Source: a virus. From it: a stretch of DNA of 24,301 nucleotides. The stretch lies in UHGV virus genome UHGV-1420800; one strand, given 5' to 3'. The translations under genes were made by a program, and so were the position numbers. The notes beneath the pieces were generated by a model that searched no databases, was not told where the DNA came from, and saw only the letters and a list, made by a program, of their open reading frames with translations. Position 1 is the first letter of the stretch, and every line of letters begins with the position of its first letter. This document shows, piece after piece, positions 1 to 24,301 of the stretch.

Positions 1-44
1 ATAGCGTAGCGTCTCGTGGGCTCGGAGATGTGTATAAGAGACAG
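1..44. other. Illumina Nextera adapter (end of P7 'AT', 8-nt i7 index AGCGTAGC, GTCTCGTGGGCTCGG, Tn5 mosaic end AGATGTGTATAAGAGACAG); non-biological
   Basis: GTCTCGTGGGCTCGGAGATGTGTATAAGAGACAG reads exactly at 11-44. The 8 nt before it match the Nextera N709 index as I remember it. Confidence 0.93.
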
Positions 45-45
45 C

Positions 46-432
46 TCTAATACTGACGTATTAGAGAGTGCCACAGCAGACAAAAAGTCTGACAAGAAAA
101 AACCTTCCGTTAGCTGTCAGGATGTTGTCGATGCTTACCACGAAATCCTTCCTGAAGCGCCAAGAATCCGCGCACTGAATGACAAGCGTAAAAACCAGAT
201 CCGAACGTTCTGGCGCAAAGCCGGAGTGATAACCCGCCAGCTTGACGGGCATGGGTTCACGATGCAGGACTGGAGAAATTATTTGAGCTACGTAGGCGAA
301 AATTGCCGATGGATGTTCGAAGAGCGTCCAAACCATCAACGCGGAACCGTCTGGCACAAAAAGGGATTTGATTTCCTGCTTAACGACAATACCTACCTGA
401 AAGTTCGTGAGGGTGAACACGATGACCGATAA
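46..432 (+). CDS. Replication initiation protein, C-terminal fragment (P22 gp18-like); 5' end cut off by the contig end and adapter
   Basis: The frame is open from the adapter junction to TAA at 430-432 and lies directly upstream of, and overlapping, the DnaB-type helicase gene, as in P22 18-12. The first ~10 residues of the listed ORF ([10 protein letters not shown]) are adapter-encoded. Confidence 0.6.
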   Translation, partial: SNTDVLESATADKKSDKKKPSVSCQDVVDAYHEILPEAPRIRALNDKRKNQIRTFWRKAGVITRQLDGHGFTMQDWRNYLSYVGENCRWMFEERPNHQRGTVWHKKGFDFLLNDNTYLKVREGEHDDR

Positions 433-1858
433 TTTTTATGCGCCGCCCCATAGCATCGAGGCTGAGCAGGCGGTGATTGGTGGATTGCTTCTGGATGATG
501 ACAGCAGTGAGCGCGTCCAGAAAGTTCTGGCGATGCTGAAGCCTGATTCATTTTACAGCCGACCACACAAAATCCTTTTCGAAGAAATAACCAGAATGCA
601 CCGGGAGCAAAAGCCAGTAGATGGCCTGACGCTTTTCGATGAACTGGAGCGTAAATCGTTAACGGCGTCTGTTGGCGGTTTTGCTTATATCGCTGAGATC
701 GCAAAGAACACGCCAAGCGCCGCAAACATCGTTGCCTATGCAATGCAGGTTCGTGAAACCGCAATGGAACGCTACGCCATTAACCGCATGACTGAAGCGA
801 CGGAATTGCTCTATTCACGCAACGGAATGACTGCAACGCAGAAGTACGAAGCTATTCAGGCGATTTTCACGCAACTGACAGACCATGCAAAAACCGGATC
901 GCGTCGCGGCCTTCGCTCATTTGGTGAGGTCATGGAAGACTGGGTTAGCGACCTTGAGAAGCGATTTGACCCGTCAGGCGAACAACGGGGAATGAGCACA
1001 GGGATCCCATCGCTGGACAGGATGCTGTCGCCGAAAGGTCTGGTGAAAGGCTCTCTGTTTGTCATTGGCGCTCGCCCTAAGATGGGGAAAACGACGCTAT
1101 ACAGCCAGATGGCAATCAACTGCGCAGTGCATGAGAAAAAGCCCGCTCTGATGTTCAGCCTTGAAATGCCAGGTGATCAGATACTGGAAAAACTGGTAGG
1201 ACAGAAGTCAGGTGTTAACCCGAATATTTTTTACCTTCCGGCGACAAATGACGCTGATGACGGCTATCAGGGTGATTACGATGGTGACTTCAACAGGGCG
1301 ATCGAAACAGCCAATCGCTTGAGTGAAATCGACCTGCTTTACATCGACGACACGCCGGGATTATCTCTGGCTCAAATCGTCAGCGAAAGCCGTCGAATCA
1401 AACGAGAAAAAGGATGCGTTGGCATGATTCTGGTCGATTACCTGACGCTAATGACCGCTGAAAAGGCCGATCGTAACGACCTTGCCTACGGCATGATCAC
1501 CAAAGGACTGAAGAACCTTGCCAAAGAGCTTGATTGCGTTGTTGTGCTTCTGACACAGCTTAACCGCGCACTGGAAAGCCGAACCAATAAACGCCCATTA
1601 CCAAGTGACTCACGAGATACAGGGCAGATTGAACAGGATTGCGATTATTGGGTGGGGATCCATCGTGAAGGTGCTTTTGATGACAGTGTTCCACCTGGTG
1701 AAACCGAACTAATCCTTCGTCTCAATCGTCATGGCAATACCGGCACGGTGTATTGCATTCAGGCAAATGGAGCTATTTATGACACAGACCAACAGTCTGC
1801 TGAAATGCGCCGCCGTGAACGCGAGGAACCGCAGTCCAAGAAGAAAGGAGGATTCTGA
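422..1858 (+). CDS. Replicative DNA helicase, DnaB family (P22 gp12-like)
   Basis: DnaB N-terminal signature PPHSIEAEQAVIGGLLLD, Walker A GARPKMGKTT, and RecA-like C-terminal motifs (ILVDYLTLM, VVVLLTQLNR). ATG at 422 is preceded by GAGGGTG. The listed 407 start is a GTG extension. Confidence 0.93.
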   Translation: MTDNFYAPPHSIEAEQAVIGGLLLDDDSSERVQKVLAMLKPDSFYSRPHKILFEEITRMHREQKPVDGLTLFDELERKSLTASVGGFAYIAEIAKNTPSAANIVAYAMQVRETAMERYAINRMTEATELLYSRNGMTATQKYEAIQAIFTQLTDHAKTGSRRGLRSFGEVMEDWVSDLEKRFDPSGEQRGMSTGIPSLDRMLSPKGLVKGSLFVIGARPKMGKTTLYSQMAINCAVHEKKPALMFSLEMPGDQILEKLVGQKSGVNPNIFYLPATNDADDGYQGDYDGDFNRAIETANRLSEIDLLYIDDTPGLSLAQIVSESRRIKREKGCVGMILVDYLTLMTAEKADRNDLAYGMITKGLKNLAKELDCVVVLLTQLNRALESRTNKRPLPSDSRDTGQIEQDCDYWVGIHREGAFDDSVPPGETELILRLNRHGNTGTVYCIQANGAIYDTDQQSAEMRRREREEPQSKKKGGF

Positions 1859-1950
1859 TGACCATCTACATCACTGAGCTAATAACAGGCCTGCTGGTAA
1901 TCGCAGGCCTTTTTATTTGGGGGAGGGTAATTGGAGGCTTTAAGAAATGA
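1858..1950 (+). CDS. 30-aa hydrophobic mini-ORF (MTIYITELITGLLVIAGLFIWGRVIGGFKK); hypothetical
   Basis: AAGGAGG lies 6 nt upstream of ATG 1858. There are ATGA overlaps with the helicase stop (1856-1858) and with the start of the next ORF (1947). It is below the 60-aa ORF-track cutoff and contains the terminator hairpin. Confidence 0.35.
   Translation: MTIYITELITGLLVIAGLFIWGRVIGGFKK
1887..1918 (+). terminator. Rho-independent terminator, lambda tR2-like
   Basis: Perfect 8-bp GC-rich stem AGGCCTGC (1887-1894) / GCAGGCCT (1903-1910), 8-nt loop, then TTTTTATTT. As I recall, the sequence matches the lambda ren-ninB spacer. Confidence 0.8.
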
Positions 1951-2162
1951 GTACGATAGTTGAGCTTGTCCGCGCCGACTTTCAGGAGAACATTGGTCGT
2001 GCAAAGCGGTACTGGTCTGCTTCCAGACTTCCGACTGGTGAGAGACAGAAAAACGCCCCTAAGCCACGTAGCTATCCGCGTGACCGCGTTCTTCGCCGGT
2101 TGGTTAAAATCGATACTGATTTTCAGTGTGACAGAATTATCCGGAACCTGGATTTAAAGTGA
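1947..2162 (+). CDS. Hypothetical protein, 71 aa, basic
   Basis: ATG has GGAGG 9 nt upstream and sits in the ren/ninA-equivalent slot. I recognise no family. Confidence 0.5.
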   Translation: MSTIVELVRADFQENIGRAKRYWSASRLPTGERQKNAPKPRSYPRDRVLRRLVKIDTDFQCDRIIRNLDLK

Positions 2163-7452: not shown

Positions 7453-7758
7453 CGTTGAGATAAGAGCCAGTTCATTACAAATCCTATCTACGGGTGGGCT
7501 TGATAATGAAACCGGAGTTAATTTCTGGTCACTAATTAACGGCAGTACAGCGAAACAACCCAAGCCAGTAAGCGGGGAAATAACACTGGCAGCCACTGAA
7601 AGATGAACCTCCTGCCTTATGGCAAAAAAGATTCTTTGTGGTGGCGGACTGATGGAAAGACATCGGATAGAATCAAGCAGTGGCTAGGGTAGTTCCCGAA
7701 AAGCGGACTCGTCACCGCCTGCCACTGAATCTATGGCGAACAACTAGACGAGGTTGTG

Positions 7759-24276: not shown

Positions 24277-24301
24277 CTGTCTCTTATACACATCTCCGAG
24301 C
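24277..24301. other. Illumina Nextera adapter (reverse complement: CTGTCTCTTATACACATCT + CCGAGC...); non-biological
   Basis: Exact Tn5 mosaic-end reverse complement followed by the start of CCGAGCCCACGAGAC. Confidence 0.93.

What the first reader, a model, noticed from the sequence alone, without database searches (positions are those of the whole stretch)
1858..1950. An SD-driven 30-codon ORF is translationally bridged to both neighbours and has a terminator hairpin inside it
A strong AAGGAGG sits 6 nt upstream of ATG 1858, inside the last helicase codons. The ATG overlaps the helicase stop (TGATG), and the mini-ORF stop overlaps the next ATG (AAATGAG). Codons ~10-21 of the ORF are the 8-bp GC stem and U-tract of the tR2-like terminator, and the encoded peptide is TM-like (ITGLLVIAGLFIW). 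Ribosomes crossing the hairpin could prevent terminator folding, so read-through into the nin region would depend on translation as well as on N antitermination. As I recall, the same hairpin-containing frame is also open and ATGA-bridged in lambda between ren and ninB, even though the downstream gene differs here. That would argue for conservation of the arrangement.
Basis: partly seen in the sequence, partly recalled or inferred. Interest (0 to 1): 0.55.

Follow-up and report, generated by a model that had tools for sequence, protein, structure and literature searches.

The report
Known ninA ORF carrying terminator tR2
The 30-codon ORF is the long-known lambdoid-phage gene ninA, which carries the classic terminator tR2 inside it; published reporter work on lambda shows that translating it weakens termination only modestly, so the finding is real but ordinary.

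Summary

It is not new. The ORF is ninA (P22 record M10074; lambda "Orf26"; phrog_5907). The hairpin is identical to lambda tR2. GenBank records of phages Nil2 and 434 already annotate the terminator inside the ORF.

In 162 copies (108 unique contexts) the upstream stop always overlaps or abuts the ATG. Seven different upstream gene ends all supply an SD. More than 10 different downstream genes start at or near the ninA stop. A second hairpin allele (HK97 type) sits in the same open frame.

Silencing the NinA RBS or AUG raised tR2 efficiency only from 0.72 to 0.86-0.87.

Best reading: tR2 is embedded in a translated relay ORF that keeps the nin-region chain of coupled genes unbroken. Translation has only a minor effect on termination.

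Novelty: already known. Interest is low.

The parts
422..1858 (+). DnaB-like replicative helicase gene (P22 gene 12 analogue). Its last codons contain the SD for ninA and its stop TGA (1856-1858) shares one base with the ninA ATG.
   Evidence: Pfam DnaB and DnaB_C, E 3e-31 and 3e-60; phrog_19; sequence.
1845..1851 (+). Shine-Dalgarno AAGGAGG for ninA, 6 nt before the ATG.
   Evidence: Anti-SD duplex -11.6 kcal/mol, top 0.1% of random window positions.
1858..1950 (+). ninA ORF, 30 codons (MTIYITELITGLLVIAGLFIWGRVIGGFKK).
   Evidence: phrog_5907 E 5e-17. Annotated as ninA in P22 M10074, Nil2 and mEp234, and as a lambda Orf26 homologue in 434.
1858..1925 (+). Conserved 68-nt module core (ninA codons 1-22 including tR2), 91-100% identical across lambdoid phages whatever the flanking genes.
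   Evidence: blastn hit 416 phage records; alignment.
1887..1910 (+). tR2 terminator hairpin (AGGCCTGC / loop TGGTAATC / GCAGGCCT), identical to lambda tR2.
   Evidence: Same sequence as the tR2 oligos in Li et al. Table S2. Annotated as 'tR2 terminator' in Nil2.
1911..1919 (+). U-tract TTTTTATTT of tR2. The expected transcript end lies about 30 nt before the ninA stop, so ribosomes on terminated RNA meet no stop codon.
   Evidence: inference from terminator geometry; non-stop effect reported.
1933..1937 (+). GGAGG, the SD for the downstream gene, inside the ninA tail, 9 nt before ATG 1947.
   Evidence: Read.
1947..2162 (+). Downstream 71-aa gene (DUF7301 / phrog_1785). Its ATG overlaps the ninA stop (ATGA).

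Best explanation
Window 1858-1950 is the lambdoid nin-region gene ninA, with the intrinsic terminator tR2 embedded in its codons 10-21. The primary functional element is tR2. It stops unmodified RNA polymerase after the replication genes, and polymerase modified by the phage N-type antiterminator (gene 24 in P22-like phages) reads through it. ninA is a genuinely translated mini-ORF whose main role is probably the act of translation rather than the peptide. First, it starts exactly where the upstream gene stops. That parks the terminating ribosome 25-28 nt from the hairpin, the distance at which tR2 reaches full efficiency in vivo. Second, ribosomes that initiate or re-initiate at its ATG cross and unfold the hairpin on read-through transcripts. 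They then terminate on or next to the start codon of whatever gene follows, so the nin-region chain of translationally coupled genes stays unbroken across the terminator. Translation of ninA lowers tR2 efficiency only modestly. On transcripts that do end at tR2 it creates non-stop complexes. Shown: the identity, anatomy and conservation of the junctions here; translation of the lambda NinA start site and the size of its effect on termination, by Li et al. Inferred: the relay and spacer roles.
For: Identity: ninA is annotated at the same position in P22, Nil2 and mEp234, and as an Orf26 homologue in 434; tR2 is annotated inside it in Nil2 and 434. The peptide matches phrog_5907 at E 5e-17. The hairpin is identical to lambda tR2.

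Selection for translation, from 162 copies and 108 unique contexts:
- The upstream stop overlaps or abuts the ATG in 104 of 104 resolved cases: ATGA 68, TGATG 24, TAA or TGA directly before the ATG 12.
- Seven distinct upstream 3' ends all carry an SD 6-8 nt upstream. They are two DnaB types, a primase-helicase, Ren, a Ren-like gene and two unknowns. Each is in the top 7.7% of random positions; the joint probability is about 2e-8 if they are independent.
- More than 10 different downstream genes begin at the ninA stop: NTGA overlap, 8-nt overlap, TAAATG, or within about 10 nt.
- The frame stays open through a second, unrelated hairpin allele (HK97 gp56) and a compensatory variant of it.
- In codons 2-10, distinct alleles are 7 synonymous to 5 conservative nonsynonymous, against 23-29% synonymous expected (p 0.009-0.03).
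- P22 differs from the window at 5 nt of the core, 4 of them synonymous and one giving I9V.

Experiment (Li et al. 2016):
- The NinA start is 'not weak'.
- TE is 0.25, 0.53, 0.73, 0.83 and 0.92 for stop-to-hairpin distances of 8, 13, 18, 23 and 28 nt of native sequence. The native distance is 28 nt here and 25 nt in lambda.
- TE is 0.72 with NinA translated, against 0.86-0.87 with its RBS or AUG mutated.
- Upstream reporter expression halves when NinA is translated on terminated RNA.
Against: The relay function has not been tested directly; no experiment measures downstream-gene translation with and without ninA translation. Tight ATGA packing is a general habit of the nin region, so junction conservation is partly expected. 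The core is so conserved at the DNA level (91-100%) that there are few independent substitutions, and the synonymous excess rests on 12 alleles. Sampling used exact-match anchors, which biases towards conserved copies. Some copies break the pattern without obvious harm: W21stop, three frameshifted tails, and the Klebsiella copy, which has about 100 nt of untranslated gap before ninB. The nin region including ninA is dispensable for plaque formation; the nin5 deletion removes it.
Confidence: 0.6

Rival explanations
1. One reading: ninA acts as an attenuator-like device. Ribosomes crossing the hairpin prevent it from folding, so read-through into the nin region is substantially controlled by translation as well as by N.
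For: The geometry is right: the terminator lies inside a translated ORF coupled to the upstream gene. Ribosomes close to tR2 can repress it strongly: TE is 0.25 at 8 nt, and 0.40 when a long ORF runs through it. NinA translation measurably lowers TE from 0.87 to 0.72, which roughly doubles read-through.
Against: The same study shows tR2 keeps most of its efficiency (72-83%) with NinA translated. It explains why: the hairpin is only 29 nt from the AUG, so a newly initiating ribosome cannot catch RNA polymerase. No alternative antiterminator structure or regulatory codons are evident; the fold of 1840-1960 has z = -0.48 and tR2 is the only strong element. From established lambda genetics (my own knowledge, not read here), N-defective phages need nin-type deletions or bypass mutations to grow, so tR2 and the downstream terminators are effective in vivo despite ninA.
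Confidence: 0.15
2. NinA is a functional small membrane protein, and the terminator merely happens to lie within its gene.
For: All variants have a hydrophobic stretch of 17-20 aa followed by basic residues. The N-terminal 9-10 codons are not explained by any known nucleic-acid signal and show synonymous-biased variation. The Klebsiella copy keeps the frame although the terminator has decayed. A PHROG family exists.
Against: Each peptide feature after codon 10 is dictated by overlapping signals (stem, U-tract, next gene's SD). Radical changes are tolerated in many copies: L13Q in the middle of the hydrophobic stretch (at least 9 copies), W21L, W21C and W21stop, and variable or frameshifted tails. 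No phenotype is known; the papers seen here list ninA as a nin-region gene without assigning it a function.
Confidence: 0.15
3. The ORF is incidental. The 68-nt core is conserved only as a terminator plus a recombination linker between mosaic modules, and the open frame has no function.
For: The core is nearly invariant as DNA and lies exactly at a mosaic boundary. The window and its 97%-identical relative IME10 carry different alleles there. Many genome records do not annotate the ORF.
Against: Seven independent upstream gene ends all provide an SD at the right distance. Stop/start overlaps are maintained on both sides with many different partners. The frame is kept in a different hairpin allele. 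Li et al. found the start site actively translated.
Confidence: 0.07

Closest known systems
ninA of phage P22 / Orf26 (NinA) of phage lambda, with terminator tR2
   Same: Same position (between the last replication gene or ren and the nin genes). Same first 23 residues as lambda. The hairpin and U-tract are identical to lambda tR2. ATGA-type overlaps at both ends. Matches phrog_5907.
   Different: The upstream partner is a DnaB-type helicase joined by TGATG rather than ren joined by ATGA. The tail is 4 codons longer (GRVIGGFKK against GRGKS) because the downstream gene is a DUF7301 ORF instead of ninB. One synonymous difference from lambda in the core (ATC against ATT, codon 5).
HK97 gp56 (alternative ninA/terminator allele; also in IME10)
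   Same: Identical first 32 nt. Same frame. A terminator-like hairpin plus U-tract at the same codons. Coupled to its neighbours.
   Different: Unrelated stem sequence (GGGGCTAT...AGTAGCCC) and a different peptide after residue 11 (AIYTVALFYWIKNEGDPDGHR).
pyrBI-type leader peptide attenuator (terminator inside a short translated leader ORF)
   Same: An intrinsic terminator lies inside a short ORF, so a closely following ribosome could physically block hairpin formation.
   Different: pyrBI relies on nucleotide-sensitive pausing to couple the ribosome to RNA polymerase, and its leader is 135 bp (as summarised by Li et al.). Here the hairpin is 29 nt from the AUG, no pause or sensing element is evident, and the measured effect of translation on tR2 is small.
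Chain of interlinked (ATGA-coupled) genes of the lambda ninR region (Kroger & Hobom 1982)
   Same: ninA is one link of that chain, with the same stop/start overlap logic as ninB-ninC-ninD and so on.
   Different: It is the only link seen here that contains a transcription terminator.

Membership tests
NinA (phrog_5907; P22 ninA / lambda Orf26) | Sequence similarity of the peptide to the family profile | tested here: met
   hmmscan E 5.2e-17 over residues 1-26 of a 27-position profile. tblastn shows 100% identity over residues 1-23 to lambda, 434 and others.
NinA (phrog_5907; P22 ninA / lambda Orf26) | Position directly after the last replication gene or ren and before the nin genes, with overlapping stop/start codons | tested here: met
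   Helicase TGATG ninA ATGA DUF7301 gene, then NinB at 2388-2798. Same layout in P22, Nil2, 434 and lambda.
NinA (phrog_5907; P22 ninA / lambda Orf26) | The ORF is actually translated | not testable with these tools
   Supported indirectly: strong SD. For lambda, Li et al. report an active start site and cite ribosome profiling by Liu et al. 2013. Liu et al. could not be read.
Lambda tR2 intrinsic (Rho-independent) terminator | GC-rich hairpin immediately followed by a U-tract, with the tR2 sequence | tested here: met
   Stem 1887-1910 plus TTTTTATTT; about -16 kcal/mol. Identical to the tR2 oligos of Li et al. and to lambda.
Lambda tR2 intrinsic (Rho-independent) terminator | Terminates transcription in vivo and is overridden by N-type antitermination | not testable with these tools
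   TE of about 0.9 was measured for the identical lambda sequence. Not measured in this phage.
Leader-peptide transcription attenuator (trp / pyrBI type) | Alternative antiterminator structure, or a pause element that synchronises ribosome and polymerase | tested here: not met
   The fold of 1840-1960 shows only the terminator hairpin as a strong element; overall z = -0.48. No Rfam leader or attenuator match.
Leader-peptide transcription attenuator (trp / pyrBI type) | Translation of the short ORF strongly changes termination | tested here: not met
   Taken from the literature, not computed here: TE 0.72 against 0.86-0.87 with or without NinA translation.
Translationally coupled nin-region gene chain | Stop of each gene overlaps or abuts the start of the next, conserved across relatives | tested here: met
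   Upstream junction kept in 104 of 104 resolved cases. Downstream junction kept with more than 10 different partner genes.

The most novel reading that the evidence does not exclude
ninA is a purpose-built device that couples transcription termination to mRNA fate. Its stop codon lies beyond the tR2 termination point, so every ribosome that starts on a tR2-terminated (non-antiterminated) early transcript becomes a non-stop complex. That would recruit tmRNA and trigger decay of the replication-gene mRNA, while on antiterminated transcripts the same ORF relays ribosomes into the nin genes. This would make replication-protein dosage depend on N status. It could also relate to the still unexplained dependence of some lambda-P22 hybrid phages on trans-translation. 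Alternatively, NinA could be a functional membrane micro-protein.
Probability: 0.12. Interest if true: 0.5.

Novelty: already known. Interest (0 to 1): 0.18.

Why it matters
As a finding it mainly confirms textbook lambdoid anatomy. tR2 is one of the most used model intrinsic terminators, and ninA has been annotated since the 1980s.

The comparative result does say something useful about small ORFs. What is conserved is the act of translation (start, SD, frame, stop placed on the next start) rather than the peptide. Conservation also holds across two different terminator alleles and many neighbour combinations. That is a clean natural example of a relay ORF bridging a terminator.

It is also a reminder for annotation pipelines: lambda RefSeq and the window's closest relative IME10 leave the ORF unannotated.

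Tried and rejected
I used tblastn against the phage collection instead.
- Liu et al. 2013 (lambda ribosome profiling) is not held in the library under its DOI or PMC id. Ribosome density on ninA therefore rests on Li et al.'s citation and on their own non-stop-mRNA evidence.
- Rfam gave no match in 1600-2300 even at E up to 1.
- The species-representative genome scan gave few genuine extra copies (Escherichia sp. E1V33, E. albertii, Shimwellia). Most hits were lambda control-DNA contamination, so no deep divergence was available for a real dN/dS or covariation test.
- The 'type 4' ninA variant without a hairpin first looked like evidence for a terminator-free NinA peptide. It turned out to be ninA split by an inserted HNH/AP2 endonuclease gene, with tR2 displaced 694 nt downstream. 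I rejected it as evidence for peptide function.
- I considered the tmRNA / lambda-immP22 link. The literature says only that the basis of that phenotype is unknown. Nothing ties it to ninA, and lambda itself carries the same ninA/tR2, so it stays in the speculative case only.
- I did not attempt structure prediction of a 30-aa peptide, which would be uninformative.

Full report
**1. Observation**

- AAGGAGG lies at 1845-1851, followed by a 6-nt spacer and ATG at 1858-1860.
- The upstream DnaB-like helicase (Pfam DnaB and DnaB_C) stops at TGA 1856-1858, giving TGATG.
- ORF 1858..1950 encodes MTIYITELITGLLVIAGLFIWGRVIGGFKK.
- Its TGA (1948-1950) overlaps ATG 1947 of a 71-aa ORF (DUF7301 / phrog_1785).
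- The consensus scan finds an 8-pair stem (6 G-C, loop 8) at 1887-1910 followed by TTTTTATTT. The hairpin alone folds at about -16 kcal/mol.
- The 121-nt region as a whole is not unusually structured (z = -0.48), so tR2 is the only strong element and no competing antiterminator fold is evident.

**2. What it is**

A blastn of 1780-2000 against 50,697 phage records hit 416 records.
- The ORF is annotated 'ninA protein' in the old P22 record M10074, where it is ATGA-bridged between gene 12 and ninB.
- Phage Nil2 annotates 'ninA' with a 'tR2 terminator' feature inside it.
- Phage 434 annotates it as a homologue of 'lambda Orf26', again with a terminator inside the CDS.
- Lambda RefSeq leaves 40571-40643 unannotated, but the ORF is there: 40567-40647, 26 aa, ATGA-bridged to both ren and ninB.
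- The peptide matches phrog_5907 (function unknown) at E 5e-17 and has no Pfam family.
- The hairpin and U-tract are base-for-base the lambda tR2 used as a model terminator (oligos; alignment).
- The window itself is a P22-like E. coli phage about 97% identical to IME10. IME10 does not annotate the ORF and carries a different allele of it.

**3. Literature**

Papers on phage L, epsilon34 and UAB_Phi20 list ninA as a nin-region gene without assigning it a function. The phage L paper also notes the ATGA chain of the nin region, citing Kroger & Hobom 1982.

Most relevant is Li, Zhang, Li & Shi, NAR 2016 (PMC4824070), who used lambda tR2 to measure how translating ribosomes affect termination in vivo. 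With native upstream sequence, termination efficiency (TE) rose with the distance from the upstream stop codon to the hairpin:

| Distance (nt) | 8 | 13 | 18 | 23 | 28 |
|---|---|---|---|---|---|
| TE | 0.25 | 0.53 | 0.73 | 0.83 | 0.92 |

Their W48 construct includes the native NinA RBS and AUG.
- They call the start site 'not weak', because translating it on terminated (non-stop) RNA halved upstream reporter expression.
- TE was 0.721 for W48, against 0.862 with the RBS mutated and 0.870 with the AUG mutated.
- By qPCR, TE was 0.83 for W48 and 0.92 for W28.
- They concluded that a terminator within the first 100 bp of an ORF is hardly repressed, because a newly initiating ribosome cannot catch the polymerase.

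The one caveat is that the upstream stop in W48 is 18 nt before the NinA AUG rather than overlapping it.

**4. Comparative test**

I collected copies from IMG/VR with two independent exact anchors, one on the hairpin and one on the 5' end. I added copies from species-representative genomes found with a back-translated pattern, plus reference phages. This gave 162 copies in 108 unique contexts.

*Upstream junction.* In all 104 resolved contexts the upstream stop overlaps or abuts the ATG: ATGA 68, TGATG 24, and TAA or TGA directly before the ATG 12.

*Upstream genes and SD.* The upstream genes fall into seven classes: two DnaB types with unrelated tails, a roughly 633-aa primase-helicase, Ren, a Ren-like protein and two small unknowns. 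All seven 3' ends contain an SD-like motif 6-8 nt before the ATG. Anti-SD duplex energies are -6.1 to -11.6 kcal/mol, each within the top 7.7% of 4000 random positions. The joint probability is about 2e-8 if they are independent.

*Downstream junction.* More than 10 different genes follow ninA, and the tail changes with the partner so that the stop lands on or next to the next start.
- NTGA overlap: ninB, a 92-aa ORF, DUF7301, a 65-aa ORF and a 60-aa ORF.
- 8-nt overlap (GTGGCTGA or ATGGTTAA): 68-aa and 108-aa ORFs.
- TAAATG: a 90-aa ORF.
- The remainder lie between -23 and +10 nt.

*Frame integrity.* Disruptions are rare: one W21stop, one 1-nt deletion, a frameshifted tail in two copies, one T insertion, and one in-frame fusion.

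*Substitutions in codons 2-10.* In the hairpin-anchored set, where this part is not constrained by the anchor, distinct alleles are 7 synonymous and 5 nonsynonymous. All five are conservative (I>V twice, I>M, T>S, T>A). Only 23-29% synonymous would be expected (binomial p 0.009-0.03). P22 differs from the window at five core positions, four synonymous and one giving I9V, with none in the hairpin.

*Substitutions in the hairpin part.*
- Stem changes are C>T transitions that create G·U wobbles and are also synonymous.
- One loop change gives L13Q in at least 9 copies.
- W21 is replaced by L, C or a stop.

After codon 10 the pattern therefore follows RNA-level rather than peptide-level constraint.

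*A second hairpin allele.* HK97 gp56 (also in IME10) has the sequence GGGGCTATTTACACAGTAGCCC followed by six Ts. It occupies the same codons of the same frame and is called terminator-like. A third variant differs from it by compensatory changes (T-A to C-G, and U·G to C-G).

*A decayed copy.* In Klebsiella phage phiKp_30 the stem has an A·G mismatch and the U-tract is broken. The 27-codon frame is still open, but it is no longer joined to ninB. This is a single case.

**5. Mechanism**

Shown here: tR2 sits inside a small ORF with a selected start site and selected stop placement. Shown by Li et al.: the lambda NinA start site is translated, and silencing it changes TE by about 0.14.

Inferred:
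- The ORF starts exactly at the upstream stop, so the terminating lead ribosome is parked 25 nt (lambda) or 28 nt (this window) from the hairpin. That is where the native-sequence distance series of Li et al. reaches maximal TE, so tR2 stays dependent on the N-type antiterminator instead of being masked by translation of the replication gene.
- On read-through transcripts, ribosomes translating ninA unfold the roughly -16 kcal/mol hairpin and deliver themselves to the next start codon. The SD for that start (GGAGG 1933-1937 here) lies in the ninA tail. This keeps the ATGA chain continuous.
- On transcripts that end at tR2, the ninA stop lies about 30 nt beyond the RNA end, so ribosomes become non-stop complexes. 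Whether the phage exploits this is unknown.

The 'TM-like' peptide is mostly a consequence of overlapping signals: the GC stem gives G/L/A, the U-tract gives L-F-I, and the purine-rich SD gives G-R-G-K. Only the first 9-10 residues show modest independent evidence of protein-level constraint.

**6. Comparison, novelty and verdict**

The element is a member of the NinA / tR2 module, and all testable membership features are met. It resembles a pyrBI-type attenuator in geometry only. There is no alternative structure or pause element, and the measured effect of translation is small, so it should not be filed as an attenuator.

The arrangement and its ATGA links have been known since Kroger & Hobom 1982 and the P22 sequence. 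Public records already annotate the terminator inside the ORF, and the translation-versus-termination question has been addressed experimentally. Novelty is 'already known', and interest is low (0.18).

What remains open is whether the native stop/start-coupled geometry gives a larger effect, whether the non-stop consequence is used, and whether the peptide does anything.

Noticed in passing
window 11-44 and 24277-24301: Both ends of the window carry Illumina Nextera adapter sequence (GTCTCGTGGGCTCGGAGATGTGTATAAGAGACAG at the 5' end; CTGTCTCTTATACACATCTCCGAGC at the 3' end). The contig ends are therefore library artefacts, and the N-terminus of the 'ORF' 16..432 is not real. The match to IME10 starts at base 45.
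   Followed up: partly
L145, L147-L155, L157, L158, L160-L164 (genome-contig hits): The ninA pattern occurs in representative assemblies of Pseudomonas, Shewanella, Oceanobacillus, Neobacillus, Psychrobacter, Pseudoxanthomonas, Nocardioides, Bradyrhizobium and others. The contigs are about 48.4-48.5 kb or about 1 kb with coverage near 1. This looks like phage lambda control-DNA contamination of those public genomes rather than real prophages.
   Followed up: no
L010 6334-7079 (also two sister loci; Stx phages SH2026Stx1 and PA28): An AT-rich 203-aa HNH_3 + AP2 homing-endonuclease-like gene is inserted into ninA after codon 9. The ninA 5' end gains a new 34-aa frame. The endonuclease's TAA stop directly abuts the displaced tR2 hairpin (0 nt). 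By the distance series of Li et al., the terminating ribosome should then largely mask tR2.
   Followed up: partly
window 1858-2162 versus IME10 NC_019501 11629-11691: The closest relative (about 97% identical overall) carries the HK97-type ninA/terminator allele, whereas the window has the lambda-type allele plus a DUF7301 gene. The mosaic exchange boundary therefore lies exactly at ninA, whose first 32 nt are shared by both alleles.
   Followed up: partly
L168 401-484 (Klebsiella phage phiKp_30): This is the most diverged ninA copy. The frame is open (MTIYITELVTGMLVIAGLLFVCKQNRF), but the hairpin has an A·G mismatch and the U-tract is interrupted, so the scan makes no terminator call. About 100 nt of non-coding sequence separates it from ninB.
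   Followed up: partly
window 7677-7739 (+): Rfam hit to int-alpA RNA (RF02996) at 42.3 bits against a gathering score of 35.8. It lies downstream of the lysis-region ORFs and is unrelated to the finding.
   Followed up: no
Li et al. 2016 Tables S4 and S8: For constructs carrying the NinA AUG, fluorescence-based TE is lower than qPCR-based TE (W43: 0.742 against 0.897; W48: 0.721 against 0.828). Part of the extra downstream expression may therefore be translational (ribosome relay) rather than transcriptional read-through.
   Followed up: no
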